A program made the translations under genes and the position numbers. DNA of 34,401 nucleotides from Candidatus Omnitrophota bacterium (lineage in GTDB: Bacteria; Omnitrophota; Gorgyraeia; B26-G9): positions 1-34,401 of the forward strand of contig JAGLQQ010000048.1 of NCBI GenBank assembly GCA_023136735.1. The letters are read 5' to 3'. Shown piece by piece: positions 9,795 through 21,687 of the stretch (within the stretch, counting starts at the first letter, position 1; every line of letters starts with the position of its first letter). Below the pieces are notes generated by a model. That model worked only from the letters and a program-made list of their open reading frames with translations, did no database searches and was not told the origin of the DNA.

Positions 9795-12263
9795 TTATTT
9801 TAAAATATTTAAAAAACTCCCCATAACCTCTTTCAGCTGATTTAATGTTTTCTCCTCCGGAACAGGGATTTGAAATGTCTTTCTTCCCGTATCCTTATCC
9901 GTGGAAATGCGAATACCTAAAGGTAATTTGGGCCCCGTTGAGCTTGCTTCCTTCGGTTTCTGTCCATCAAGGCTGTTACTTAAATCCTTCAGAAAAGAAG
10001 CTCCTAATCGCAGCATCGTTTTTAGAGAATCCTCTCCCTCTAAGCCTCTACGCGTAACTCTATCTCGCTGTTTTTGGGCCTTAATTTCATGTTCTTCTGT
10101 TATTTCCTGCATGGAAACTTCTCTCTCCTTTAATAATTTCTCATAAGATTCCTTGTTAGAATCGTCTTTATCCTCCAATGATTCTGTTGCTTTCTCAACG
10201 GTCTTCATAAACCGATTAAATTTCGTTGTTCCCATGAAAACCTCATTATCTCCTTTATCTAAGACGCCGGAAAACATAGAATGTTTAAATTTAAGCAAAC
10301 CAAGAATCCCATGCTCAAGACCGCCCTGTGAGATAAAATTAATCACATGAACGGGATTTTTCTGCCCCATACGATGCACCCGGCTGATTCTTTGTTCTAA
10401 TATAGCAGGATTCCATGGAAGATCGATATTAATGACAAAGGCAGCGTTCTGAAGATTCAATCCTACACTACCGGCCTCAGTTGATAAAAAAATCCGGCAC
10501 TTCGCGTCCTTCTTAAAAGCTTTAATGAGCTCTCCTCTTTTGCCTGACGGCACCCCTCCATGCAAAAAGGCGTAATTCCAGCCATTGACCTTAAGCATAC
10601 GCGTAATCAACTCCATCATACGAAGCCACTGAGAAAAGATTACTACCTTTGCCCGCGGGTTCTCAAAAATTTCCTTAAGTTGGACCTCTAACTCATCAAT
10701 CTTTGGGCCATGAATCATATCCTGGTCAATTAAATAGGTATTATCACAGACCATACGCATATTCTGTAGCGACATCATTAAAATTTGTTTTTCCTTCTCT
10801 GTTAAAAAATGATTTCGATTCCATTTAGAAGCAATCCTAACAACAGTATCTTTATTATCGTTATGAATGTCCTGCTGTTCTTTTGTCATGGTAATAAAAT
10901 AATTCTTATTTATCCTCTCAGGAAGTTGACTTAAAACCTCCTTGCTCTTACGGCGAACCAGAATTTTCTTTAAGGAATCACCTAACCTATTCAGATTTCT
11001 GTACCCGACAACCTTTCCCTTTTCATTAACAATCTGGTGTTTATGCAGGAAACGAAATAGCGGGCCTAAATGATATCGGTCTATAAACTCCACAATCGAA
11101 TGGAGTTCCTCTAAACGATTTTCTAAAGGAGTCCCGGTGAGAACAAGAGCATACGGAGATTTTAATTGTTTTACAGACTGTGCCATCCGTGTCTTCCAAT
11201 TCTTAATACGCTGCGCCTCATCAAGGATAATCAAATCAGGCCCCCACTCTAAAATCGGAGCAATATCTCTGTGAATAACATCGTAGTTAACAATCTTAAA
11301 AAAACTTTTTTCCTGATATTGGCGATGCCTATAAGGCAATAAACCTTGTATTATTTGAACACCGCGATTAGCAAACCTCTCAATTTCCTGCTTCCATTGA
11401 AACTTTAGACTTGCCGGACAAACAACCAGCACTTTTTCAATTCCAAAACATTCGGCCATAATCTCACTGGCAGCAATTGCCTGAATCGTCTTACCTAATC
11501 CCATCTCATCCGCGATTAAACTCCGCCCCGCGAAAGAGGCAAAAAGCGCCCCTTCTCTTTGATAAGGATACAATTCCGCTTTAAGGAGATGCTTCCATCG
11601 CGGGCTGTCAATACCCTTTGGAAAAGCCTTCTTTAGGCGTCTTTTTCCCAATTCCATATCCCGCGCATCAGCTATAAATTCCATCGCGTCATTATGATAT
11701 TGAATTTCATCTTTTAAAACACTTGTCCGTAACATAAATTCATCAAAACACTGAAATCCTTTATCTGTTAGAAATAATTTCTCATCAAAAAATTCTGAAA
11801 CTATTTTTTTCAGTTTCTCACTGGCCTCCCGGCCAAGCAAAAAAGAAGCTCGCCGTTGAAGCCCATACCTTAAAGTCACCGCAGAATATTCCGGATGAAA
11901 TCCTTCTCTAAGAGCCTGTCTTCCCCCTTTTTTTCTTCTTAAACGGCGCAGTATTGATTCGATATGCTTACAAGTACCTAACGTATTAATAGAAAAATCC
12001 GGACAAGAACAATAATTAATACCTAAGGCCTCTCCGGCAATAACAACACGATAAGTTTTATCAGTCGCTGGATTTCTCACCCTAAAAGTGGAAAAAACAG
12101 GATGCGTCCCAACATTCTTTACGCTCATCCTCTGTTCTACCGCAATCTTTTTTCGTAAAGCAACCTGCCATTCCTCTAAAGATAATCCTTCAGGTTTTTG
12201 TATATGAGAAATCTTCTTAGCTTCCTTTTTCCGTTTAATTCCTTGTTTCTTTTTCATAATCAT
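9795..12263 (-). CDS. SNF2-family helicase with an N-terminal SWIM zinc finger
   Basis: 822 aa. SWIM CSCPDFSINTLGTCKHIESIL. SNF2 motifs DEMGLGKTIQAIA, LILDEAQRIKN, LTGTPLENRLEEL, LSTEAGSVGLNLQNA..INIDLPWNPAILEQRISRVHRMGQ. Lys/Glu-rich C-terminal tail. Confidence 0.88.
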   Translation of the reverse strand: MIMKKKQGIKRKKEAKKISHIQKPEGLSLEEWQVALRKKIAVEQRMSVKNVGTHPVFSTFRVRNPATDKTYRVVIAGEALGINYCSCPDFSINTLGTCKHIESILRRLRRKKGGRQALREGFHPEYSAVTLRYGLQRRASFLLGREASEKLKKIVSEFFDEKLFLTDKGFQCFDEFMLRTSVLKDEIQYHNDAMEFIADARDMELGKRRLKKAFPKGIDSPRWKHLLKAELYPYQREGALFASFAGRSLIADEMGLGKTIQAIAASEIMAECFGIEKVLVVCPASLKFQWKQEIERFANRGVQIIQGLLPYRHRQYQEKSFFKIVNYDVIHRDIAPILEWGPDLIILDEAQRIKNWKTRMAQSVKQLKSPYALVLTGTPLENRLEELHSIVEFIDRYHLGPLFRFLHKHQIVNEKGKVVGYRNLNRLGDSLKKILVRRKSKEVLSQLPERINKNYFITMTKEQQDIHNDNKDTVVRIASKWNRNHFLTEKEKQILMMSLQNMRMVCDNTYLIDQDMIHGPKIDELEVQLKEIFENPRAKVVIFSQWLRMMELITRMLKVNGWNYAFLHGGVPSGKRGELIKAFKKDAKCRIFLSTEAGSVGLNLQNAAFVINIDLPWNPAILEQRISRVHRMGQKNPVHVINFISQGGLEHGILGLLKFKHSMFSGVLDKGDNEVFMGTTKFNRFMKTVEKATESLEDKDDSNKESYEKLLKEREVSMQEITEEHEIKAQKQRDRVTRRGLEGEDSLKTMLRLGASFLKDLSNSLDGQKPKEASSTGPKLPLGIRISTDKDTGRKTFQIPVPEEKTLNQLKEVMGSFLNILK

Positions 12264-12379
12264 CAGATACCCCTTCTATTTATAGCTATTATAAAATTTA
12301 TTAAGTCCTCTTAAACGCGTCATTCTCTGAAGAACAGTGCCTGCTCCCGTTATATTTTCCTCGGGACAAATTGACAGTA

Positions 12380-12408
12380 TTGACAATTTGTGCGGTATGT
12401 GCTATATT
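12380..12408 (+). promoter_or_regulatory. Consensus sigma70-type promoter on the plus strand
   Basis: TTGACA (12380-12385), exactly 17 nt, TATATT (12403-12408). A second TTGACA lies at 12371-12376. Confidence 0.6.
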
Positions 12409-12414
12409 TATATT

Positions 12415-12510
12415 GCAGTGTGAAGCGGTGGAGTCAAGACTTGATTTAAGTCAAGTCCCGATAAGTTGGGTGTGTCCCAATCGAAACCAAGGCAAACACT
12501 GCTTTTTTTT
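12415..12510 (+). ncRNA. Candidate small structured RNA of about 90-96 nt, identity unknown
   Basis: 5' GCAGTGT (12415-12421) pairs with ACACTGC (12496-12502), followed directly by T8 (12503-12510). Internal hairpins are GACTTGA/TCAAGTC (12438-12457) and TTGGG-TGTGT-CCCAA (12466-12480). AGTCAAG is duplicated. No credible ORF. Confidence 0.45.
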
Positions 12511-13234
12511 AGAAATTATCTTCTGTTTCAATTTTTTCTATTCGTTTAAGCAAATTATACCAAAAGGGTTTTCCCTCGTATTTTTTCCTAACGGCCCAAG
12601 CTAAATAATCTATCATTTGTAACCCTTTACTATTTCTCGAATTCTCAAAGTAAATGTTTATTAACGGATCGATGGTTCTTTTTGAAGCAAACTGGAAAGA
12701 GAGCTCATTTTTGATATATCCAATGTAATCAAGATTCAGTCTTTGGATACTTAGGTTCACATTTTTTTGTTTTTTTACCAAGGTGATATTTCTTTGATCT
12801 ACGCATATTTCCATTGTATCTCTAAGAAAGCTGAAACATTCCGTATATAATTTTTTTGATAGGAAATTATAGATTTTTTCTTTATGTAAACATTTTAAAT
12901 TTGGCCCTTGCTTGGCTGGTTCATGGATTAGGAAGCCTGCTTTTATATCTAACTTGTTTATATCTTTATATATTTCTTGCAAGTAGAGTTTGGGGTTTAT
13001 TTTTAATTTAGTACAATTAATTTCATGACGGGGATTTTTGTAATTATATAAATGCGTTGCTTTTATCTCAGCATCTTTAGGCCAACCGTTTTCCCATAAA
13101 TAATTATTATGAAACTTGAGAAGCCGGTTAATTTGAGAAAGCTCTTTTTTGTAATAGAAAAGCATTCCGATAATAAAATGCTGTGTTCCTTTACACTGGC
13201 CCAAATCACCAGTTTCGTCAATAAAAATAAACAT
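12509..13234 (-). CDS. DUF3800-family protein, last gene of the defence operon
   Basis: 241 aa. N-terminal MFIFIDETGDLG (the DESG-type start typical of DUF3800) and C-terminal LQMIDYLAWAVRKKYE. AAGGAA RBS. 37-nt gap from the zinc-ribbon gene. Confidence 0.7.
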   Translation of the reverse strand: MFIFIDETGDLGQCKGTQHFIIGMLFYYKKELSQINRLLKFHNNYLWENGWPKDAEIKATHLYNYKNPRHEINCTKLKINPKLYLQEIYKDINKLDIKAGFLIHEPAKQGPNLKCLHKEKIYNFLSKKLYTECFSFLRDTMEICVDQRNITLVKKQKNVNLSIQRLNLDYIGYIKNELSFQFASKRTIDPLINIYFENSRNSKGLQMIDYLAWAVRKKYEGKPFWYNLLKRIEKIETEDNF

Positions 13235-13271
13235 TGTGGGTTCCTTTTATTAAAATAACGTTCCTTGAATT

Positions 13272-13427
13272 TTATTTTTTAATGATTTTTCCACACTCAG
13301 GACATTCAATTTCATTATCAATAAATAAGCTACAAGATACTTCAGCTCCGCAATGCGGACATTTAACGATATCCGCACCCATAGTTACATCGTATTCTAA
13401 AAATTCGTCAAATAAATCATCAATCAT
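13272..13427 (-). CDS. 51-aa zinc-ribbon protein (not in the ORF track, below the size cutoff)
   Basis: Hand translation: MIDDLFDEFLEYDVTMGADIVKCPHCGAEVSCSLFIDNEIECPECGKIIKK. Two CxxC pairs (CPHC..CPEC). The ATG overlaps the upstream stop by 8 nt (ATGATTGA). Confidence 0.6.
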   Translation of the reverse strand: MIDDLFDEFLEYDVTMGADIVKCPHCGAEVSCSLFIDNEIECPECGKIIKK

Positions 13428-14019
13428 AGTCGAACACTTTTATGCCCAAATCTTCTAAAGCAATGAAATGCCACTTGTATCGCTGAATATAACCCAGAGC
13501 AGTTCCACCAAGACTACTTACAGCCATACGCAATGTATTATAATGTTCTTCTCTTAATTTGACTATCCAAGCCTTGTTTGGAACAATCAAAGTAGTTTCA
13601 TCTGGATCTAAAATAAGGCTGTCTGTTTTTATACGCCATTCTCTTTCCCAAGTAAAATCTTTATCATTATCCGGTTCATATCGTACATGTCTGTATCTCA
13701 TATCTTCGGGCAAATTAAGATATTCATTATCAGGCTGATAAACAACAGGCCGCCCGCCTTGAGCATATAGCCACTCTTTTGAAACCATTATTCCAAATGG
13801 CCGATAACGAATGTTTGTTTGATTCTCCAAAGTAAACATTCGAGCTATCTCGTGAATCGGGGTCTCAGAAAAACATACACAGCGATAGCCGTCCTTGATG
13901 AATCCTATGCCTCCGTTCAGCTTTTCGTCTTTTAGTATCTGAAAAAAAATACTGCCGGCATTATCAAAAACATTGTTTTTAACTAAATGTATTAAATTAT
14001 TACTTATATCACTTCTCAT
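13420..14019 (-). CDS. AbiGi-like abortive-infection family protein (tentative)
   Basis: 199 aa. The pattern LIHLVK...FFQILKDEKL...CVCFSETPIHEI...YRPFGIMVSKEWLYAQGGRPVVYQ resembles my recollection of the AbiGi family (hFHFTK..IL..., vCFcDiPl, YG.yGI...K.W....G..PV.Y). ATGA overlap with the MTase stop. Confidence 0.45.
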   Translation of the reverse strand: MRSDISNNLIHLVKNNVFDNAGSIFFQILKDEKLNGGIGFIKDGYRCVCFSETPIHEIARMFTLENQTNIRYRPFGIMVSKEWLYAQGGRPVVYQPDNEYLNLPEDMRYRHVRYEPDNDKDFTWEREWRIKTDSLILDPDETTLIVPNKAWIVKLREEHYNTLRMAVSSLGGTALGYIQRYKWHFIALEDLGIKVFDYD

Positions 14020-17000
14020 GTCTTATCCAATACAAGTTTGCGCTCTTCAGTCGTAAGTTCATATAAATCAAAAACAAAATCGTCAATTTTACATTCTTGA
14101 AGTTTTATTTGCTTTTGTTTTCGATCGTTACAGGTGAAACTTGTCTTAACGCGCAAGTCAATCATTTTATCTACTTCAATGATGAACTTTTTTTGCGTGA
14201 TAGAATCAAGTTTCGGGATAGGGATTTTACCAATATAATGATTATCAAAATGCATCGTGCGAATTGCCGAACAGTATATAAATTTATAAGTATACCAGCT
14301 AACAAACTTTGAATTTAAAAGACCAAGAATATATTTATAATCATAATCTCGATCATGTATAACTGTGTTTTGCACAGTATCAACACTATAAATTATACCT
14401 TCTTCATCCAAAGCAGACATTATCTTAATATGAGGATTTGGATTTTGAATATGAGCTATCAAATCTTGAGATATGATTTTTTTTTGGGACATAAACGCTA
14501 CTTTTTTCTTTTTTTTCTCCAGTTCTATTTCAGTAAGAAACCCTTTTATACCATTGAGGCCATATCTAAAGATATTTTTACCCCCAATAATTTTATGCTT
14601 CCCCTTGTCCTTTAAATATTTTTGCAAAGCAACTCCACGATGCGTTTCAGAAATTTCCCGCATTAATTTATGCGGTACTCGCAACTTCAAAAATATGTCC
14701 AGCTCATTTTTCGTTACATCGCAAATCCAGGCTTTTGTAATTGCCACAGCTTTTTGCGGTATTATTATCTTTCGAATAAAGGCATTATCTAAAAATTTCT
14801 GTGCAACATACGAATTTCTCTTAATATCCCTTCCATATACAAAAACAATCTGTTCTAGCTTTACTTTTTCAAAAGCTTTTTCGACATCAACAAGAGATAA
14901 ACTATGCGGTAATAATGCTTCAACTAACGAAACCCATTTTTCTGAATAGAGCAAGGACTTAGGAACAATATAAGAAAGAGTACCCTTTTTGTTGAGAAAT
15001 CTATTTTTTCCATAATCAATAAAAAGAGCAGCGCTATTATTATTCTGAGTATCAACGACATAGCTAAAAATATACTTTAATTGCTCTTTTTCTATTTTCG
15101 CTCCATATGGTGGATTGGCTATCACAATATCAAATCCGCCTTTATCCTTGAAGACTTCGAAAAAGTTAAGTTTCCATAAAAAATATGGCCTAACTTTCGA
15201 CCGGTGAATTTCGTTTGGGATAGCAAGAAACTCAAGCTTTTTTTTCATTAACTCTGCTTGCTGTTTTCTGTGATCCGGAAGCTGCATATTAAGATTTTTT
15301 ATGCGTACATCAATGTCGTTAACCCTTTTCTGAACAGAATGTTTTATAAACTCAAGTTCGATTTTTTCTATTTGATTTCGTATCTGTTTTTTACTCTCCG
15401 GAGCATACTCACGGAAATATTGCAGGTGTAGTTCCCTAAGAGCCTTCAAATGTTCCTGAGCATCCTCCTTAAACCAAGTTGGCTGCATTAGGTTGTTTGC
15501 TGTTTTAGCGCGCTTTTTTGGAGGATTTAGGAGTTTGTTGATTTCTATTATTTCTTCTTTAAGCTCTTTTTGTTTTTCGCTTGTTAACTTTCCTTTTGTG
15601 TGTACTTTGAAGAATTCTTTTTGTTTCGCGCTTAATTGCTTTTTAAGTTCCCCACGCTTTTTCTCAGTCAAATCGTTTTGATGTGAGACTTTCCCCAGCA
15701 GTTTAGGGTCGAAAAGCTGGATAGATTCATCACCAACAACTAATTCCTCGAGTAGGCTATTCCCACACATTATCTTATAATCCAGGTTAGGCAAAGGCTC
15801 TACATCCTTCAATTCATAGTCAACAACTAAACTCAACCACAATCGTAACTTGGCTATATCCACTGCCCCAGGATCAATATCAACACCGTAAATGCAATTT
15901 TGGATTGTTTCCGTTTTAAGTTGGTGTTCACTTTTTCCCTTTTTAAGCTCTAATGTCTTACTAATAGCGCGACGGATGCCAACAACTTCATTTAACATTC
16001 CAACCAAGAAGGCTCCGGATCCACATGCAGGATCACAAATCTTCAGATCGATAAGAGCTTGCTCAATTTTTTCCGCTTCGTTTTTTGAAAGAATAAAATC
16101 TTGAGTTGAAGTTCTATCGGTATCCTTATAAGCAATCAACCGTCTTAACTTGTTGTTATCGATAGATGTTACGGTTTCTAAGCAGCTGACAAGGCTTTCC
16201 TGACACATATAATGAACGATTTCACGAGGGGTGTAATATGCTCCCCGGCCTTTGCGCAAATTTTCAGGAAGCAGATTTTCAAAAACTTTTCCCAGCATTT
16301 CCGGGTCAACCGCGACTTCTTTTTCAAGAGGTTCATCTTCTTTAACAGTAAAATTATAAAGGTCAAAAACGGCTAAAATATCTTCAAAAATATCGTCATT
16401 TAAATTCACAAAAGTATTTCGCCAATCATATTCCGGGTCAAATAAGCCTCCGTTTAGAAAGGGTATTTTACATTCAAAAAGACGAGAATAAGACGGGTCC
16501 ACTTCATCCCGGCGAGAATTATTAAGAGTATCATAGAAAAGCGGCTCTAAATAATTGTTGTGAAAGTTTTCTTTTTTCTCTTTGGCTTTTTTAAAGATTG
16601 TTTGAAGGAAAAATTTATCTCCATGCCCCCAATTTTTACCTGAAGGAACACCTATCCACCCTTTTTTTTGCAAAAAATAAAGGAAAACTATCTGTCCTAA
16701 AAGCTTCTTGGCAAAATCCTCAATGACGATATGCTGCTTTGAAACTATTACCTGAAACGCATGATTTTTTTGTAAGTTATTTGTCAACCGGTCATATAAT
16801 TGACGGTAATTATCATAAAATTCTTTTGTAACTTTTTCAACACCAAACGCATCTTCAATATCAAAAACACAAGGATTAGTTTTCTGCTCTTTTAAAATCG
16901 GGAAAAGCTGTGTCTGCGCAGTATGAGACGGTTCGCCTTCTCCAACTAAGAAAGAAAATCGTTTTGGCGGTGTCCCGGCTTCGACCTTTACGCCTTTATC

Positions 17001-17369
17001 CGTAACTTTATACTCAACCTTGATAAATGAAAGCCGCCAATCCGCAATGGCTTCTGTATAAAAGGCCACTAAAGCCGCATCTTTGACATTATCCTTTAAA
17101 TATTTAGCAATTAAATTACGCTGAAACGAGCGGGCTCTTTCTACTTTCGTTGTGGTAGGTAATTTGACGACCAAAACATCTATTCTCTCATTTCGTTCGT
17201 CAGTATATTCTGCCAGAAAAGTAATATTGGTGATATGTTCATCATTCCCTGAAGGAATAGCAATAGGAGCGGGGATAAGCTCAATCTCGTTAAATAAGTT
17301 TTTAATAAAAGTCTCAAATCGAGACTGATCAAAGCAATGCTCAAATGTTCTCGCAATTAACTCTTTCAT
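14016..17369 (-). CDS. Gamma-class N6-adenine DNA methyltransferase, Eco57I/PglX-like, with its own C-terminal target-recognition region
   Basis: 1117 aa. Motif I ICDPACGSGAFLVGML, then YGVDIDPGAVDIAKLRLWLSL and GNSLLE, a Lys-rich coiled-coil insert, and motif IV FDIVIANPPYGAK. The order I then IV indicates the gamma class. C-terminal YILGLLNSKFVSWYTYKF resembles TaqI_C-type specificity domains. Confidence 0.88.
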   Translation of the reverse strand: MKELIARTFEHCFDQSRFETFIKNLFNEIELIPAPIAIPSGNDEHITNITFLAEYTDERNERIDVLVVKLPTTTKVERARSFQRNLIAKYLKDNVKDAALVAFYTEAIADWRLSFIKVEYKVTDKGVKVEAGTPPKRFSFLVGEGEPSHTAQTQLFPILKEQKTNPCVFDIEDAFGVEKVTKEFYDNYRQLYDRLTNNLQKNHAFQVIVSKQHIVIEDFAKKLLGQIVFLYFLQKKGWIGVPSGKNWGHGDKFFLQTIFKKAKEKKENFHNNYLEPLFYDTLNNSRRDEVDPSYSRLFECKIPFLNGGLFDPEYDWRNTFVNLNDDIFEDILAVFDLYNFTVKEDEPLEKEVAVDPEMLGKVFENLLPENLRKGRGAYYTPREIVHYMCQESLVSCLETVTSIDNNKLRRLIAYKDTDRTSTQDFILSKNEAEKIEQALIDLKICDPACGSGAFLVGMLNEVVGIRRAISKTLELKKGKSEHQLKTETIQNCIYGVDIDPGAVDIAKLRLWLSLVVDYELKDVEPLPNLDYKIMCGNSLLEELVVGDESIQLFDPKLLGKVSHQNDLTEKKRGELKKQLSAKQKEFFKVHTKGKLTSEKQKELKEEIIEINKLLNPPKKRAKTANNLMQPTWFKEDAQEHLKALRELHLQYFREYAPESKKQIRNQIEKIELEFIKHSVQKRVNDIDVRIKNLNMQLPDHRKQQAELMKKKLEFLAIPNEIHRSKVRPYFLWKLNFFEVFKDKGGFDIVIANPPYGAKIEKEQLKYIFSYVVDTQNNNSAALFIDYGKNRFLNKKGTLSYIVPKSLLYSEKWVSLVEALLPHSLSLVDVEKAFEKVKLEQIVFVYGRDIKRNSYVAQKFLDNAFIRKIIIPQKAVAITKAWICDVTKNELDIFLKLRVPHKLMREISETHRGVALQKYLKDKGKHKIIGGKNIFRYGLNGIKGFLTEIELEKKKKKVAFMSQKKIISQDLIAHIQNPNPHIKIMSALDEEGIIYSVDTVQNTVIHDRDYDYKYILGLLNSKFVSWYTYKFIYCSAIRTMHFDNHYIGKIPIPKLDSITQKKFIIEVDKMIDLRVKTSFTCNDRKQKQIKLQECKIDDFVFDLYELTTEERKLVLDKT

Positions 17370-20300
17370 TCAATATTACCCTTTACAAGATATTCTGATA
17401 AAATAACTTCTCTCGGACTATTACCATAAAACTGATCGCCATGTGATATGTTTGAAAAATAACTTTCCGGGATCCCATGTTTAAATTTAAAAAGGATCTT
17501 TAATGGATTGCTTTCGCCTTTAATTTTTTTAACCAAGACCTTAGTTGTTTGCTTTGAAAGAGAGCCTTCCTGCAAAAGCCTTAACACACGCGCAAGATAT
17601 TCTTCGTCATCTTCGGTTAATTTAGGAAACTTTTGAATTGCCTTTATCGTACGAATTAAAGTGGTTTCATTACTTCGGCCGCCGCTTTGCTTAAATTCCC
17701 GAATTTCTTCTGTTGTTGACATACGAAAAGCTTCTTTATTTGCTTCTAATGCCGCATAAAACTCTTTTTCTATCTTCTGCCGTTTTTCCTTTGTTTTACA
17801 TCTAAGCTGTTTGGCTGCCGTAAAAAAGTCTAATTCTCCAACCTTACCACCAGCAGTTTTAAACATCTTTCGAAGTTTGCCCTTTCTGAAAAAGGTAATA
17901 ACACCTGTTAAATCACTTACTTTTGAACTTCTTGCTTTCTTGGGCAGTTTTTTTATTAGCGTATACAAATCCTCTTTTTTATCCCGAATATCCCGAATTT
18001 CAGAAAGATACTCTAATTCTGAATCTTCTTCCTCCGCGCCTTTTTCAAGAGTATCTTTTGAATTTATGCGTGAAAAAAGCTCATGAGTAGTAATCTCTTC
18101 GCCTTCTGTTAAATACTGCGAATCTTCGCCTAAAGTGTCATGGAACGCCTGTATTTTTGCTATAGCGGCTTCTTCCAGCTTTATCTCATTGTTTGCCTGG
18201 ACTGTTGGGAAAAAGTTATATATGTGAAGGTTGCTATAAGCTGTGCCGATACGATTGATACGGCCAACACGCTGAAGGAGCCGGGTCGGATTCCAGGGGA
18301 TATCATAATTAATAACAACATTTGACCGATGTAAATTTACACCTTCAGCCAAGACATCCGTTGTTACCAATATATTTATATCGTCTTTTTGCTTGCCATA
18401 ATTTGGATCATAGTTTTCAATGACTCTTTGCCTGAGCTCCGCGGCTGACTGCCCGGAAAAAGCAAAAACACGGTCTCCATAAGTTGATTTTAGGCTCTTT
18501 TTTAAATAATCAGCGGTCTCTTTTGATTCCGTAAAGACGATTAACTTGCTGTTTTTTAGAATCTTATCTGAACGCAATATTTCCTTAAACTTGTCTATTT
18601 TGGGATCTGTATCGATAGAATTCCATAACGCGGCTATTTCATTCAGAATATCAAGATCAGCTATTAGATCTTTCTTAAATTCGTCTGTAAAGTCTTTTGC
18701 AGCATAATTCGGAACGCCCTTTTCGTTTACCAAATAATCCAGCAATTCCTGATCGTCATTACGTAACGCTTCTTGAATTTTATCATTATATTTTTTATCA
18801 ATATAAACCTTCCCATTATCGATCATATTTATAAACTCTACATAGGAATGAACAAAACGTCCTAGTGTCTTCTTAAACGCAAAAAAACTACTCTCAAGCC
18901 GCTTTACTAAAAGAATTTTCATAAATCGGCCTAAGTTACGCTGTCCGATAATTTCTTGTTTTTCTTCCGGAGAAAGATTTTTTAAATATGTAAGAGGCAT
19001 ATAACGTGTATATTGAAATACCCTTATAAGCTCGATTGTACGCAAAAATACCTTTTCCAGCTTAGTGTCAAACTCATAATATACCCGATTAGGTTCTGCC
19101 AGGTCAGGGAATTTAAGTTTACGCTGTTTTAAGTCTTTCTGGAAGTATTTAAGAATCTCTGTTCGTGTTCGGCGAACCATTAAATACTTTAAAATATGCT
19201 CGCGGATTAGTTTTGAATTCTCTTTTATGACCCGAATGTATTTTTTGAGATCCTTACGATCAACCGCCCTTTGTTTCTTGATCAGTTCCTTGAAAAATTT
19301 TTCAAGATCACGGATATTCGGGATAGTGCTACTGTGTGTGTTCTGGAAAAGTTTTATCTGACTTAAAATGTCGTTTGGTGTATTATTAAGCGGTGTCGCT
19401 GAAACTAAAATAACTCTTTTCCCCCAACAAATCTGTTTAAGTTTTTCATACGTCTGCGTAGTTTCATTACGAAAGCGATGAGCTTCATCAATAAATACAT
19501 TGCGATATTTTTCGGGTTTATCCAGCAGATTATCAAGCTTACCTAAAGATTCAACATCAAAACCCCTAACTCCAAAGTCCCGGAAGGTATCATGCCAGTA
19601 ATCTTTTAAAACCGGTGGACATATAACCAGGGTGTATCCATCTAACTGCTGGGCCAGCAATGCTGAGATATATGTTTTTCCCAAACCAACAACATCAGCA
19701 AGAAATACTCCGCCATAATCACCGATCTTTGTCATTGCATCTTTTACAGCTTCATCCTGATATTCCAACTCCATAAACCCTTCCGGCAAAAACCGGCGAT
19801 CTTTATAAATGGAATCCATATCCTCATTTATTTTTTCTTTAAAATATTCATAAAGAAACTTTAGATATAACTCATAGGGTGAAATGGTATCATTAAGCCA
19901 TGTACGCTGATTAATGGTTTCAATATACTTCTCGGAAATATCTACTGAGTCTTTCCATAAATCCTCAAAACGCGCAAGCGCATACTTAACATCCCGGCTG
20001 TCTTTTAACTCAACATTAAATTCGAGGTTCTCATGCAATCCAGAATATGAAAAGTTGCTTGACCCTGTAATAATCCTTCCATAGTCTTCGCTTTTAGCCG
20101 TATCTTTGCGGATAATATATACCTTAGCGTGGATCGTCTGAGTAGGATACGCTCTGATCTCAAGTTTGCCGTTCCGGATAAAGTCTATAAATTTATGGAC
20201 ACCTTCTTCGACATTATAGTTGTCTTCGGAAGCTTCCATTTCCTGCGCAACCTGATCGGCAAACTCTTTCTGAGTCTCTTTATGTGAAAATCTTAACGTT

Positions 20301-20542
20301 AACTGTTTATCTTTTGCCTGTGTAATAAGATCATGTGCTTTTCTATCTAAATTTATTCCCACTAAAATACGAATTTTTTCAACCTTCTCTAATGATTTAT
20401 AAAGGTGGCAAAAGCCGCTTGTCCTAAAGTAGCCAACTAATATATCAAAAAACTGCGTGTTGTTCTCTAAGGTTATCTTGAAACGGTCAAGCAGCGTAGC
20501 CCCTTTTTCATTAGTAAAAAAAGTTAAATCTGTATTCATCAT
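17366..20542 (-). CDS. PLD(HKD)-nuclease domain fused to an SNF2-family helicase; candidate restriction/motor subunit
   Basis: 1058 aa. N-terminal HKD motif TIHAKVYIIRKD...GSSNFSYSGL. SNF2 motifs LADVVGLGKTYISALLA, VFIDEAHRFRN, LVSATPLNNTPNDILSQI, LVTTDVLAEGVNLHRSNVVINYDIPWNPTRLLQRVGRINRIG. ATGA overlap with the MTase start (17366-17369). Confidence 0.88.
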   Translation of the reverse strand: MMNTDLTFFTNEKGATLLDRFKITLENNTQFFDILVGYFRTSGFCHLYKSLEKVEKIRILVGINLDRKAHDLITQAKDKQLTLRFSHKETQKEFADQVAQEMEASEDNYNVEEGVHKFIDFIRNGKLEIRAYPTQTIHAKVYIIRKDTAKSEDYGRIITGSSNFSYSGLHENLEFNVELKDSRDVKYALARFEDLWKDSVDISEKYIETINQRTWLNDTISPYELYLKFLYEYFKEKINEDMDSIYKDRRFLPEGFMELEYQDEAVKDAMTKIGDYGGVFLADVVGLGKTYISALLAQQLDGYTLVICPPVLKDYWHDTFRDFGVRGFDVESLGKLDNLLDKPEKYRNVFIDEAHRFRNETTQTYEKLKQICWGKRVILVSATPLNNTPNDILSQIKLFQNTHSSTIPNIRDLEKFFKELIKKQRAVDRKDLKKYIRVIKENSKLIREHILKYLMVRRTRTEILKYFQKDLKQRKLKFPDLAEPNRVYYEFDTKLEKVFLRTIELIRVFQYTRYMPLTYLKNLSPEEKQEIIGQRNLGRFMKILLVKRLESSFFAFKKTLGRFVHSYVEFINMIDNGKVYIDKKYNDKIQEALRNDDQELLDYLVNEKGVPNYAAKDFTDEFKKDLIADLDILNEIAALWNSIDTDPKIDKFKEILRSDKILKNSKLIVFTESKETADYLKKSLKSTYGDRVFAFSGQSAAELRQRVIENYDPNYGKQKDDINILVTTDVLAEGVNLHRSNVVINYDIPWNPTRLLQRVGRINRIGTAYSNLHIYNFFPTVQANNEIKLEEAAIAKIQAFHDTLGEDSQYLTEGEEITTHELFSRINSKDTLEKGAEEEDSELEYLSEIRDIRDKKEDLYTLIKKLPKKARSSKVSDLTGVITFFRKGKLRKMFKTAGGKVGELDFFTAAKQLRCKTKEKRQKIEKEFYAALEANKEAFRMSTTEEIREFKQSGGRSNETTLIRTIKAIQKFPKLTEDDEEYLARVLRLLQEGSLSKQTTKVLVKKIKGESNPLKILFKFKHGIPESYFSNISHGDQFYGNSPREVILSEYLVKGNIE

Positions 20543-20558
20543 TTCCTTGCTTTCTATT

Positions 20559-20759
20559 TTAAATTTGCCTTCCCACTAACTTATCAATCGTAACCTTAAA
20601 CGCATCTGCTAGTTTTATTATTGTCTCAAGCGTAGGATTCTTGTTAAGGCCGGATTCCATTTTAATTAACGTGCTGTATGTGATTCCGACTTTTTGGGCG
20701 AGTTTTTCTTGTGATAAATTCTGTTTTTTTCTTAATTTTTTTATGTTTTTTGAAAGCAT
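20559..20759 (-). CDS. XRE-family HTH regulator in a C(controller)-protein-like position, first gene of the defence operon
   Basis: 66 aa. KKLRKKQNLSQEKLAQKVGITYSTLIKMESG (HTH_3 type). AGGAGAG RBS. Only 16 nt, containing an AAGGAA RBS, separate it from the PLD-SNF2 gene. Confidence 0.85.
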   Translation of the reverse strand: MLSKNIKKLRKKQNLSQEKLAQKVGITYSTLIKMESGLNKNPTLETIIKLADAFKVTIDKLVGRQI

Positions 20760-20815
20760 AAACTCTCCTATTTTTTCTTAACCCATTCGCCACAGACTTT
20801 GTCCTTGCCCGGAAG

Positions 20816-20833
20816 CTATAGGAATTACTATAG
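20816..20833. promoter_or_regulatory. Palindromic operator-like site CTATAG-GAATTA-CTATAG upstream of the XRE gene
   Basis: 57-74 nt upstream of the ATG at 20759. Same 6-N6-6 architecture as 3689-3706. Followed in mRNA sense by CTTCCGGGCAAGG, related to the CCGGGCACA boxes. Confidence 0.4.
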
Positions 20834-21087
20834 ATTTTTCTTGACAGGCTATTAATATATTGCTTTTAATATAATATATTATGCCCACGCTATTTTAATA
20901 TCAAGCATAAAATATGGATTTAAAAATATTTTTCTTCTTCCCTAGATCTTGTTATATCTCATTCATCAAAACAATAACATCAACCCGGATATTCCAATTT
21001 TTTCTTTAAGCTTATTCATATCCTTTAGCAATTTCAATCAATGCGTTGAGTATTGCCACGGCAACGGCACTGCCTCCCCGGCTTTCC

Positions 21088-21687
21088 TCATCGCAAGCAC
21101 AGCCCTGGGGACATTACCGGGATTAGACTCTTTTTTGTCTTTATCAAAAACACATAATGTGACCAGCTCAAAGTAAAAGCAGGGTTCTTCAATTGGCCAG
21201 ACGCTGTCTGGCTTTTTTGTTTTTTAGTCAATCGCGCAGACGCCATCTGCGTTTTTCTCAATTGCCCAGACACTGTCTGGGTAATTGAAGGTTGATGAGA
21301 ATACACTAAATAAAACCTTCTCATATATTCTAAATTTCTCTTGGAAAATCCTCCCCCAAATTCTTTAATCAATTTAGCAGATAAAGATTTTATCAAAGCA
21401 TCACCATAATCAGCTTTTTCCTTCCCTTGCTGTTCACGCTCAACAATACGCCTGCCAATTTCAAAATTGGACATCTCTTGAAATGTTTTAAATTTCTTAA
21501 TTACTTTTCGTGCCAAATCAACAGCGCTAACTCCCCACGTGCCGGTACGAAAAAGAATAGCCAAAAGCTCAGAATCGCTTAAAGCCCCCGCGCCTTTTTT
21601 GAGCAGCTTCTCCCTCGGCCTATCACCTTCAGGCCAATTTTTTATGGCTCTTTCGTAAACTTTCTTTTGTTTTACGCTTGTTGGCAT
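21088..21687 (-). pseudogene. Chimeric gene remnant: RadC N-terminal (HhH) segment fused to a DUF1016/YhcG-type N-terminal segment, truncated
   Basis: [49 protein letters not shown] is RadC-N-like, but no JAB/MPN domain follows. [51 protein letters not shown]...QTVSGQL...SWSHYVFL is DUF1016-N-like, but the nuclease half is absent. A further out-of-frame fragment (..SRGGSAVAVAILNALIEIAKGYE*) lies at 21012-21113. Confidence 0.6.
21196..21225 (+). terminator. Intrinsic-terminator-like hairpin on the plus strand, inside the pseudogene
   Basis: GCCAGAC-GCT-GTCTGGC followed by TTTTTTGTTTTTT. It could end a short plus-strand transcript diverging from the XRE promoter region (TTGACA at 20841-20846). 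No coding partner is evident. Confidence 0.3.

What the first reader, a model, noticed from the sequence alone, without database searches (positions are those of the whole stretch)
12509..14019. Tail module coupled to the MTase gene: AbiGi-like protein, 51-aa zinc ribbon and DUF3800
The AbiGi-like ORF start overlaps the MTase stop (ATGA). The zinc-ribbon ORF start overlaps the AbiGi-like stop by 8 nt. This argues for stoichiometric co-expression rather than chance adjacency. AbiGi normally pairs with AbiGii, which is absent here. DUF3800 has no established mechanism that I know of. The trio could be an abortive-infection back-up, or a sensor/effector that reads the state of the R-M core.
Basis: inference. 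Interest (0 to 1): 0.7.

Follow-up and report, generated by a model that had tools for sequence, protein, structure and literature searches.

The report
Three unrelated add-ons behind a restriction operon

Summary
Three minus-strand ORFs (199, 51 and 241 aa) follow the 1117-aa methylase gene, with an ATGA overlap, an 8-nt overlap and a 37-nt gap.

- The 199-aa protein is a remote AbiGi relative (hhalign 98% probability against a true Pfam AbiGi member). It is below Pfam threshold and has no AbiGii partner. It has a probable ADP-ribosyltransferase (ART) fold and invariant H / CxS / ExE motifs.
- Its family is large (about 2,900 clusters at 50% identity), single-domain and usually a solo gene.
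- The 51-aa protein belongs to a conserved family of small zinc-ribbon proteins with an acidic N-terminus.
- The 241-aa protein is a true DUF3800 with an RNase H2-like fold.

The three families never co-occur in more than 130 related loci. The helicase + methylase core also exists without any tail genes. The trio is therefore not a conserved module.

The new result is a ~96-nt structured RNA at 12415-12510 (+), with its own consensus promoter. It converges on the DUF3800 stop codon. It accompanies every close DUF3800 relative (18 distinct loci; 12 of 28 base pairs covary). Architecturally related RNAs follow 18 distinct loci of distant DUF3800 relatives. None matches Rfam. The likely functional unit is DUF3800 plus this RNA.

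The parts
17366..20542 (-). PLD(HKD)-nuclease + SNF2 helicase fusion, 1058 aa. First gene of the restriction-like core.
   Evidence: Pfam PLDc_2, SNF2-rel_dom and Helicase_C. PADLOC 'HKD+Snf2' C3a139 at 4.6e-50. 30% identical (E 1e-110) to the helicase that precedes the methylase in Prevotella nigrescens.
14016..17369 (-). Eco57I / type IIG-like N6-adenine DNA methyltransferase with a TaqI_C specificity domain, 1117 aa. Second gene of the core; its start overlaps the helicase stop by 4 nt.
   Evidence: Pfam Eco57I 1.2e-24, N6_Mtase and TaqI_C. PADLOC REase_MTase_IIG 3.1e-142. 35% identical (E 7e-104) to the Prevotella methylase, where the operon ends after this gene.
13420..14019 (-). 199-aa single-domain protein of an unnamed clade of the AbiGi/DUF2971 ART-like superfamily. 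Its start overlaps the methylase stop (ATGA).
   Evidence: - No Pfam hit above threshold.
- hhalign 98.2% probability against a true AbiGi member.
- AF2 model pLDDT 89.6. The top Foldseek PDB hits are DarT, Arr, ParT, NatT, RES, PltA and NarE, but all are weak; the best is E 0.035.
- Invariant H11, C49-x-S51, E125-x-E127.
- 2,892 clusters at 50% identity, all about 200 aa.
13272..13427 (-). 51-aa small protein with an acidic N-terminus (DDLFDEFLEYD) followed by a CPxCG...CPECG zinc ribbon. Its start overlaps the 199-aa stop by 8 nt.
   Evidence: Only sub-threshold zinc-ribbon Pfam hits. 17 homologues at 68-84% identity with both cysteine pairs conserved in the full-length sequences. The genomic contexts differ completely from one locus to the next.
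12509..13234 (-). DUF3800 protein, 241 aa. Predicted nuclease with an RNase H2-like fold.
   Evidence: - Pfam PF12686 at 9.6e-13.
- Invariant D6-E7, D146, Q206-x-x-D209.
- AF2 pLDDT 88.5.
- Foldseek top hits are RNase HII 2dff and human RNase H2A 3puf_D, probability 1.00.
12380..12408 (+). Sigma-70-type promoter of the non-coding RNA (TTGACA, 17 nt, TG-n-TATATT).
   Evidence: Best promoter match in 12000-21200, 11 of 12 positions with an extended -10. A TTGACA with a TATAAT-like box sits at the same distance from the RNA in 17 of 18 other loci, while the surrounding sequence differs.
12415..12510 (+). About 96-nt structured non-coding RNA, convergent with DUF3800.
- P1: 12415-12421 with 12496-12502.
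- P2: 12425-26 with 12492-93, 12429-31 with 12487-89, 12434-35 with 12483-84.
- P3 hairpin: 12438-45 with 12450-57.
- Conserved GAUAAG linker.
- P4 hairpin: 12465-70 with 12476-81.
- U8 tract: 12503-12510, overlapping the DUF3800 stop codon by 2 nt.
   Evidence: - Fold -33.2 kcal/mol, z -3.8.
- Present at the same place and in the same orientation in every close DUF3800 locus that has downstream sequence.
- 12 of 28 pairs covary and 99.1% of cells are paired. Covariation score 0.341 against 0.167 in shuffles (0 of 500 reach it) and at most 0.059 with slid partners.
- The covariance model gives 0 hits in 1.18 Mb of unrelated loci.
- No Rfam match.

Best explanation
The tail is a pile-up of three independently inherited units behind a two-gene restriction-like operon (PLD-SNF2 helicase-nuclease plus an Eco57I-type methylase). 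It sits in a slightly AT-rich island between housekeeping genes.

Unit 1, the 199-aa protein. It belongs to a large, unnamed, normally solo clade of the AbiGi/DUF2971 ART-like superfamily. Its catalytic-type motifs (H, CxS, ExE) are intact. I infer that it is an NAD+-using ADP-ribosyltransferase-type enzyme that modifies a nucleic acid or protein target during infection and needs no AbiGii partner. Here it has been captured into the operon and is co-translated with the methylase.

Unit 2, the 51-aa acidic zinc-ribbon protein. It is promiscuous and appears behind unrelated genes elsewhere. Its role is unknown. It may be a small adaptor or inhibitor.

Unit 3, the DUF3800 nuclease. Its true partner is the convergent ~96-nt structured RNA, not the two upstream genes. 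I infer that nuclease and RNA form a two-part protein-RNA module of the toxin-antitoxin or abortive-infection kind. The RNA would bind the nuclease and hold or direct it, and/or pair with the read-through 3' end of its mRNA. Loss or alteration of the RNA during infection would release nuclease activity.

Shown: gene anatomy, homologies, folds, RNA structure and conservation, strict DUF3800-RNA co-occurrence, and lack of trio co-occurrence.

Inferred: enzymatic activities, RNA-protein binding, and any role in defence.
For: Independence of the three units:
- hmmsearch/phmmer with the three families over all fetched loci never finds two of them together.
- Neighbours of 80 genomic loci of the 199-aa family are heterogeneous. 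No gene family recurs in more than 4 loci, and many neighbours are housekeeping genes such as ligA, mutS, relA and gltB. There is no conserved small partner and no zinc ribbon downstream in 72 loci.
- The core occurs without a tail in Prevotella.

ART-like nature of the 199-aa protein. PMC12522546 lists AbiGi among ART families of the R-S-E clade, with CxS variants in a distantly related sister family (Lsan_2474).

Defence association of the 199-aa family:
- The closest homologue (57% identity) sits between an SNF2 helicase (4-nt overlap) and a DUF1156 methylase followed by a DUF499 ATPase.
- Locus L053 carries helicase + Eco57I methylase + HNH + a homologue.
- A true AbiGi gene follows a Gabija-like ATPase + UvrD helicase pair.

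DUF3800 plus RNA:
- Same position and orientation in all 18 distinct close loci.
- Covariation.
- Conserved promoters.
- A related architecture (P1, P2, then a three-way junction of P3, CAUAAG and P4) downstream of distant DUF3800 genes at 24-28% identity, with 16 of 28 and 9 of 30 covarying pairs.
- RNase H2-like fold with the acidic residues kept.
- Literature: DUF3800 genes are known to sit beside 11 different structured RNAs (PMC5737381). DUF3800 is the accessory protein of type VII retrons (PMC7736814).
- DUF3800+RNA neighbourhoods are variable and rich in mobile-element and defence genes, including integrases, DarT + Macro, NYN and Mrr.
Against: - The ATGA and 8-nt overlaps do make co-expression of the methylase, the 199-aa protein and the zinc ribbon likely in this organism. 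A lineage-specific functional link therefore cannot be excluded by comparative data alone.
- Three independent insertions of the 199-aa family into helicase + methylase operons are more than random placement would give. They could mean a real accessory role.
- The ART assignment rests on weak structural hits (best E 0.035, TM 0.41) and on motif positions. No enzymatic data exist for any AbiGi protein in the papers I could read. A 2026 review found no structural match for lactococcal AbiGi (PMC13064643).
- Nothing shows that the RNA binds DUF3800 or that DUF3800 is toxic.
- All DUF3800 comparison loci are from metagenomes, so expression is untested.
Confidence: 0.65

Rival explanations
1. The 199-aa protein, the zinc ribbon and DUF3800 act together as one sensor/effector or abortive-infection back-up that reads the state of the helicase + methylase core.
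For: Tight gene packing: ATGA overlap, 8-nt overlap and a 37-nt gap. All are on one strand with no terminator-like site in between. All three families occur in defence or mobile contexts elsewhere.
Against: No pair of the three co-occurs in any of more than 130 related loci. The core exists without them. DUF3800 has a different, constant partner, the RNA, and stands alone with it in unrelated contexts.
Confidence: 0.08
2. Only the 199-aa ART-like protein, possibly with the zinc ribbon, is a true accessory of ATP-dependent helicase + methylase restriction systems. For example, it might ADP-ribosylate DNA or the restriction complex as a second line of defence or as a regulator. DUF3800 + RNA remains a separate neighbour.
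For: - Translational coupling to the methylase here and to the SNF2 helicase in the closest homologue's DUF1156/DUF499 system.
- A third case behind an Eco57I-type methylase + HNH.
- A true AbiGi gene behind a Gabija-like ATPase + helicase pair.
- A zinc-ribbon homologue directly behind a DUF499 ATPase.
Against: Most family members are solo genes beside housekeeping genes. The host systems in the embedded cases are not homologous to one another. The position within the operon also varies.
Confidence: 0.2
3. The RNA acts purely as a cis-antisense regulator of the DUF3800 mRNA, like the convergent 3'-overlapping antitoxin RNAs of type I toxin-antitoxin pairs. It would not be a protein-bound structured RNA.
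For: Convergent orientation with the U-tract overlapping the stop codon in every locus. No terminator-like site for the DUF3800 mRNA before the RNA gene. Read-through would therefore be fully complementary to the RNA.
Against: Base pairs are kept by compensatory changes, and several single-stranded stretches (GGUGGAGUC, GAUAA, the GGUGU-UCC loop) are invariant. This is unexpected for a simple antisense RNA. Other DUF3800-associated RNAs lie on either side and in either orientation (PMC5737381).
Confidence: 0.15
4. The 199-aa protein is a non-catalytic antitoxin or regulator, as the Pfam name 'AbiGi, antitoxin' suggests, rather than an enzyme.
For: The Pfam and NCBI names. No solved AbiGi structure or assay exists (PMC13064643).
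Against: There is no toxin partner next to it in 80 loci. About 30 invariant residues include H, CxS and ExE at the strands where ART catalytic motifs sit.
Confidence: 0.15

Closest known systems
AbiGi (Pfam PF10899) of the lactococcal AbiG abortive-infection system, and the DUF2971/AbiGi ART-like group
   Same: Profile-profile homology at 98% probability. Shared H..K, CFSE-P and WEREWR motifs. Size of about 200 aa. Occurrence in defence contexts.
   Different: Below the Pfam threshold (12.1 bits against 22.4). No AbiGii partner here or in 80 related loci. It forms its own large clade without a Pfam model. Here it is fused into a restriction-like operon.
DarT (the DNA ADP-ribosyltransferase toxin of DarTG)
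   Same: Best structural match of the 199-aa model (7omw, probability 0.80). Other ADP-ribosyltransferases (ARTs) follow in the list.
   Different: TM-score only 0.41 and E 0.035, with 11% identity. No macrodomain antitoxin is adjacent. No sequence-level match to any PDB entry.
DUF3800 proteins with their associated RNA motifs DUF3800-I to XI (Weinberg et al. 2017, PMC5737381)
   Same: A DUF3800 gene next to a conserved, highly structured RNA that ends in an intrinsic terminator. A UAA-containing conserved stretch is present, as those authors remarked.
   Different: The RNA matches no Rfam model, even at E up to 10 locally. At least DUF3800-I and DUF3800-IX are in Rfam (PMC11701678). Orientation and position are fixed here: convergent and abutting the stop codon. 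I could not compare it with motifs II-VIII, X and XI if those are absent from Rfam.
Type VII retrons (reverse transcriptase + ncRNA + DUF3800 effector; PMC7736814)
   Same: A DUF3800 RNase H2-like protein working beside a structured non-coding RNA in a defence-type locus.
   Different: No reverse transcriptase is present in the window. This DUF3800 keeps the QxxD motif that the retron-linked proteins lack.
Two-gene PLD/HKD-SNF2 helicase + type IIG-like methylase systems (PADLOC 'HKD+Snf2'; related to DISARM DrmD/DrmMI)
   Same: The upstream core matches these models. It has a collinear homologue in Prevotella nigrescens.
   Different: The core is context for the finding, not the finding itself. 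Relatives carry no tail genes or different ones.

Membership tests
AbiGi (Pfam PF10899) / AbiG system | Match to the Pfam AbiGi model at or above the gathering score | tested here: not met
   E 0.2 and 12.1 bits against a cut-off of 22.4 for the window protein. 20 of 40 family members give only sub-threshold hits, the best at E 0.0027. PADLOC AbiGi gives E 0.0021.
AbiGi (Pfam PF10899) / AbiG system | Homology to a bona fide member shown by profile comparison | tested here: met
   hhalign of alignment A1 against the Sphingobium pEP2 protein: probability 98.2%, E 2.9e-14, 133 columns. That protein passes Pfam AbiGi at 40.4 bits. tblastn gives E 3e-6.
AbiGi (Pfam PF10899) / AbiG system | An adjacent AbiGii partner gene (two-gene system) | tested here: not met
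   No AbiGii hit among the six flanking window proteins scanned. No recurrent neighbour in 80 loci.
AbiGi (Pfam PF10899) / AbiG system | Abortive-infection phenotype against phage | not testable with these tools
   Needs phage challenge experiments.
ADP-ribosyltransferase (ART) fold superfamily | ART fold with three catalytic motifs on beta-strands (H/R; Y or S/CxS; E or ExE) | tested here: inconclusive
   The top Foldseek hits are ARTs but weak; the best is DarT at E 0.035 and TM 0.41. Invariant H11 lies in strand 8-14, C49-x-S51 in strand 47-51, and E125-x-E127 at the start of strand 127-131. No coordinates were available for checking the geometry.
DUF3800 (Pfam PF12686) | Match above the gathering score | tested here: met
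   49.5 bits against a cut-off of 21, E 9.6e-13, covering profile positions 1-148 of 149.
DUF3800 (Pfam PF12686) | N-terminal DE motif and C-terminal QxxD motif (as described in PMC7736814) | tested here: met
   D6, E7, Q206 and D209 are invariant in 41 sequences.
DUF3800 (Pfam PF12686) | RNase H-like fold | tested here: met
   AF2 pLDDT 88.5. RNase HII 2dff and human RNase H2A 3puf_D are the top hits at probability 1.00 and TM 0.43-0.48.
Rfam DUF3800 RNA motifs (for example RF02969 DUF3800-I, RF02968 DUF3800-IX) | Covariance-model match of the neighbouring RNA | tested here: not met
   No Rfam hit at gathering score in the window. No hit to any DUF3800 model at E up to 10 in 12150-13500. None in the 23 distinct related loci scanned in two searches.
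Toxin-antitoxin pair with an RNA antitoxin (type I or type III) | Toxicity of the protein that is neutralised by the RNA | not testable with these tools
   Only the anatomy is shown: strict co-occurrence, convergent overlap and an own promoter.
Zinc ribbon | Two CxxC pairs about 15-20 residues apart in a small protein | tested here: met
   C23-x-x-C26 and C42-x-x-C45 are conserved in all 16 full-length sequences; two truncated homologues lack the second pair. All Pfam zinc-ribbon hits are below their cut-offs.

The most novel reading that the evidence does not exclude
DUF3800 together with its convergent ~96-nt RNA is a self-contained ribonucleoprotein immune or addiction module of a kind not yet characterised. 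An RNase H-fold nuclease would be held in check, or targeted, by a dedicated structured RNA. The window type and the two variant RNA types found here would form one RNA superfamily shared by distant DUF3800 clades. Separately, the 199-aa family would be a solo ADP-ribosylating defence enzyme that plugs into different helicase + methylase systems.
Probability: 0.3. Interest if true: 0.8.

Novelty: new variant of a known kind. Interest (0 to 1): 0.5.

Why it matters
DUF3800 genes have been known since 2017 to sit beside many unrelated structured RNAs, and nobody knows why. DUF3800 also turns up as an accessory in retrons and Cas12a2/a3 loci.

A further RNA class is described here. It has a fixed geometry, a clear promoter and terminator, strong covariation and one-to-one co-occurrence with its gene. 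This gives a compact pair of about 1 kb that can be tested directly for RNA binding, toxicity and phage defence.

The 199-aa family is a large group with no Pfam model (about 2,900 clusters at 50% identity). Its probable ADP-ribosyltransferase motifs, together with its repeated capture by helicase + methylase operons, make it a candidate new stand-alone defence enzyme.

The result is also a caution. Translational coupling in a defence island is not evidence that the coupled genes work together.

Tried and rejected
- Pfam, NCBIfam and PHROGs on the 199-aa protein gave nothing above threshold.
- PDB sequence search with the family profile gave only a Schlafen 8 hit at E 0.12. I treated it as noise.
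- Foldseek against viral models gave nothing informative.
- I looked for a zinc ribbon downstream of 72 homologues of the 199-aa protein and upstream of DUF3800 homologues. None was found.
- I looked for any recurrent large or small neighbour of the 199-aa family. Only synteny among close relatives appeared.
- I tested whether the zinc ribbon resembles the zinc ribbon of the DUF1156 methylase. It does not.
- Rfam at the gathering score and at permissive E-values gave no family for the RNA.
- An exact-pattern scan of viral contigs for the RNA core gave 0 hits.
- A guide-RNA reading of the RNA is unlikely. The only variable part is the P3 hairpin, and there is no free variable end.
- The supplementary files of Weinberg et al. 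2017 are not held, so motifs that may be missing from Rfam could not be compared.
- One preprint that mentions DUF3800 could not be opened.
- A mixed alignment of the two distant RNA types recovered only the P4 hairpin, so I analysed the two types separately.
Full report
**Observation**

The window carries five co-oriented ORFs on the minus strand between 20542 and 12509:
- a 1058-aa ORF at 17366..20542
- a 1117-aa ORF at 14016..17369
- a 199-aa ORF at 13420..14019
- a 51-aa ORF at 13272..13427
- a 241-aa ORF at 12509..13234

The junction between the 1117-aa and 199-aa ORFs reads ATGA. The 199-aa and 51-aa ORFs overlap by 8 nt (ATGATTGA). A 37-nt gap precedes the 241-aa ORF.

All three small ORFs have conserved homologues whose N-termini agree with the called start codons.

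**The core operon**

The 1058-aa protein is a PLD/HKD nuclease fused to an SNF2 helicase. The 1117-aa protein is an Eco57I/type IIG-like N6-adenine methylase with a TaqI-type specificity domain.

A collinear pair occurs in Prevotella nigrescens, at 30% and 35% identity (E 1e-110 and 7e-104). There the operon ends after the methylase and the next genes are on the other strand. A Deinococcus relative of the methylase is followed by quite different genes: DUF262, a hypothetical protein, and further on a helicase. The tail genes are therefore not part of the core system.

The stretch 12-21 kb has 32-37% G+C, against 38-42% in most of the flanks. It lies between pgk/tpiA and type II secretion or pilus genes. 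This fits an acquired island.

**The 199-aa protein**

Pfam, NCBIfam and PHROGs give nothing above threshold. PADLOC AbiGi gives E 0.002 over 50 residues.

The family is large and well conserved:
- 782 hits in the word-indexed search, all about 200 aa, all named 'hypothetical' and none with a Pfam domain.
- 2,892 clusters at 50% identity with E up to 1e-3 in the exhaustive search. The 150 best are all single-domain.

An alignment of 40 members has about 30 invariant positions. These include H11, C49, E52-x-P54, K81-x-W83, G88-G-R-P-V92, R110-H111 and E125-R-E-W-R129.

Half of the members give sub-threshold Pfam AbiGi hits. tblastn against plasmids reaches proteins that NCBI names 'AbiGi family' and 'DUF2971'. 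The Sphingobium protein passes Pfam AbiGi (40.4 bits) and aligns with the family profile at 98.2% probability and E 2.9e-14. It shares the H..K, CFSE-P and WEREWR motifs. The label 'AbiGi-like' is therefore right at superfamily level, although the protein fails the Pfam membership test.

The AlphaFold model is confident (pLDDT 89.6). It has no strong PDB match, but the top of the Foldseek list is almost entirely ADP-ribosyltransferases: DarT (E 0.035, probability 0.80), Arr, ParT, NatT, RES, PltA and NarE. A survey of ART families lists AbiGi and DUF2971 in the R-S-E clade, and reports CxS variants of motif II in a sister family distantly related to AbiGi, Lsan_2474 (PMC12522546). The invariant H11, C49-x-S51 and E125-x-E127 sit on the strands expected for the three ART motifs. 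I infer an active ART-type enzyme. This is not shown.

**Neighbourhood of the 199-aa family**

218 genome hits were found and 80 loci kept.
- Single-sequence searches with the window's methylase, DUF3800 and zinc ribbon find none of them in these loci.
- Clustering of 832 neighbouring ORFs gives no family present in more than 4 loci. Those few are synteny among close relatives.
- Pfam scans of 123 flanking ORFs and of 10 large upstream ORFs show a scatter. There is some defence flavour (FRG, TIR, PIN, HNH). Much of it is housekeeping, including ligA, mutS, relA/spoT, glutamate synthase and molybdoenzymes.
- There is no conserved small partner and no downstream zinc ribbon.

The family is normally a solo gene. 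It has, however, been captured by helicase-containing defence operons at least three more times:
- The closest homologue (57% identity) lies between an SNF2/NOV_C helicase, with a 4-nt overlap, and a DUF1156 methylase followed by a DUF499 ATPase.
- Locus L053 has an SNF2-type helicase, an Eco57I-type methylase, an HNH protein and then the homologue.
- The true AbiGi protein of Sphingobium follows an AAA_15/OLD-TOPRIM ATPase and a UvrD helicase, which resembles Gabija.

This supports a defence role and leaves room for an accessory function. It is not a conserved partnership.

**The 51-aa protein**

It has an acidic N-terminus (DDLFDEFLEYD) and two CxxC pairs. It has 17 homologues at 68-84% identity.

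Its contexts differ completely from locus to locus:
- behind an AAA_14/DUF4143 ATPase
- in front of a DUF3142 gene
- directly behind a DUF499 ATPase

None of these loci carries a 199-aa family member or a DUF3800 gene.

**The DUF3800 protein and its RNA**

The 241-aa protein is a clear DUF3800. D6-E7, D146 and Q206-x-x-D209 are invariant. Its confident model (pLDDT 88.5) matches RNase HII and human RNase H2A best. This agrees with published predictions (PMC7736814, PMC10910872).

Its 45 close homologues (54-74% identity) lie in unrelated places:
- after a DUF6119 gene
- alone next to a transporter
- inside an integrative element with integrase, resolvase and primase genes
- between an EcoRI-type methylase + GmrSD/HNH and an Mrr gene

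Further metagenome loci show NYN, DarT + Macro, integrase, Mrr, RadC and transposase neighbours. None has the 199-aa protein or the zinc ribbon.

Weinberg et al. (PMC5737381) reported that DUF3800 genes associate with 11 different structured RNAs, so I examined the 245-nt gap downstream of the gene. It holds the best sigma-70 promoter match of the region on the plus strand: TTGACA, 17 nt, TG-n-TATATT at 12380-12408. This is followed by a sequence that folds into a closed multi-branch structure ending in U8 (-33.2 kcal/mol, z -3.8).

nhmmer finds this sequence in every close DUF3800 locus that has downstream sequence. It is always on the opposite strand, with its U-tract at the DUF3800 stop codon. 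Two loci cut by contig ends have partial copies.

Nineteen distinct sequences, including the window, align without difficulty.
- RNAalifold predicts 28 pairs in four helices, 12 of them with compensatory changes.
- 99.1% of cells are paired.
- The covariation score is 0.341, against 0.167 for shuffles (0 of 500 reach it) and at most 0.059 with slid partners.

A TTGACA box with a TATAAT-like box sits at a fixed distance upstream in 17 of the 18 other loci, while the flanking sequence differs.

A covariance model finds one copy in the window at 12406-12519 (122.8 bits). It finds none in 1.18 Mb of loci fetched for the other families. Rfam has no match, at the gathering score or at E up to 10. 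Rfam does hold at least DUF3800-I and DUF3800-IX (PMC11701678).

**Distant DUF3800 relatives**

The 21 loci examined (18 distinct) that carry DUF3800 genes only 24-28% identical to the window protein also have a convergent RNA right after the stop codon. They share one architecture: an outer stem, a GUAAAUC/GUAAUUC bulge, a long second stem, and a three-way junction of a short hairpin, CAUAAG and a second hairpin.

Two sub-types each show covariation, 16 of 28 and 9 of 30 pairs. The window-type model reaches two of these RNAs at E around 1e-3 to 1e-4. None matches Rfam.

DUF3800 plus RNA is therefore the conserved unit, across deep divergence of the protein.

**How it most likely works**

Shown:
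- three gene families with independent distributions
- a core that exists without them
- a strict pairing of DUF3800 with its RNA

Inferred:
- The 199-aa protein is an NAD+-dependent ART-type enzyme acting on its own. In this lineage it is expressed with the methylase.
- DUF3800 is a metal-dependent nuclease.
- The RNA binds it, or pairs with its read-through mRNA, and controls it. This would resemble RNA-antitoxin pairs and the retron type VII arrangement, in which DUF3800 accompanies a reverse transcriptase and its RNA.

The conserved single-stranded stretches and the compensatory changes argue for a protein-bound structured RNA rather than a plain antisense RNA. The fixed convergent overlap keeps the antisense model alive. 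A guide-RNA role is unlikely because there is no free variable segment.

**Verdict**

The trio as a functional 'tail module' is not supported. It looks like ordinary accretion in a defence island, despite the tight packing.

Two parts are of interest in their own right:
- a large clade of the AbiGi/ART-like superfamily that has no Pfam model
- a DUF3800-associated RNA class that is not in Rfam

I rate the whole as a new variant of a known kind, with an interest score of about 0.5.

Noticed in passing
window 12380-12510 (+): A ~96-nt structured non-coding RNA with its own consensus promoter and terminator. It converges on the DUF3800 stop codon. It is conserved with covariation in all 18 distinct close DUF3800 loci and is absent from Rfam.
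   Followed up: yes
L123-L147, the 60-200 nt after each DUF3800 stop, opposite strand (for example L143:5698-5784, L129:1798-1894): Distant DUF3800 genes (24-28% identity) carry two further RNA variants. They share the same layout (outer stem, GUAAAUC bulge, second stem, hairpin, CAUAAG, hairpin), and each shows covariation. One type has a separate terminator hairpin. Neither is in Rfam.
   Followed up: partly
L081 6567-16253 (also L082-L084): The closest homologue of the 199-aa protein is wedged between an SNF2/NOV_C helicase (4-nt overlap) and a DUF1156 methylase followed by a DUF499 ATPase. An SMC-like ATPase and a Schlafen/AlbA_2 protein come next. This is a different restriction-like system with the same add-on.
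   Followed up: partly
L148 227-6547 (Sphingobium sp. EP60837 plasmid pEP2): A bona fide AbiGi-family gene follows a Gabija-like pair (AAA_15/OLD-TOPRIM ATPase and UvrD helicase). A 641-aa protein with no Pfam domain follows it. No AbiGii-like gene is annotated.
   Followed up: partly
L097 1731-5166 and L098: A homologue of the 51-aa zinc-ribbon protein sits directly behind a DUF499 ATPase and overlaps a 164-aa gene of unknown function. The zinc ribbon therefore also turns up at the tail of a DUF1156/DUF499-type system.
   Followed up: no
window 9795-12263 (-): An 822-aa SNF2 helicase with an N-terminal SWIM zinc finger lies immediately beyond the RNA gene. It has strong PADLOC hits to DpdE/ZorD-type helicases (E 1e-60 range). 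It may belong to the island or be a housekeeping RapA-like gene.
   Followed up: no
window 21088-21687 (-): A 199-aa ORF upstream of the helicase gene combines UPF0758_N (RadC-like N-terminus) and DUF1016_N. It looks like a fragment or small fusion at the island border.
   Followed up: no
window 12001-21000: G+C is 32-37% here, against 38-42% in most of the flanking 1-kb blocks. This is consistent with horizontal acquisition of the whole block.
   Followed up: partly
L149 3989-4528 (Pantoea stewartii plasmid pCN101): A 32%-identical relative of the 199-aa protein is embedded, with overlapping gene ends, in a non-ribosomal peptide / AMP-ligase cluster that also encodes an NAD+ synthase. This is an unexpected non-defence context.
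   Followed up: no
window 13420-14019 (-), residues 10-60: The family profile gives a weak hit (E 0.12) to rat Schlafen 8 (5yd0) over the stretch around the CVCFSEAPIS motif. This is probably chance.
   Followed up: no
L136 252-337 (+): A tRNA-Sec-like match below threshold (39.4 bits against 47) lies just upstream of a distant DUF3800 gene.
   Followed up: no
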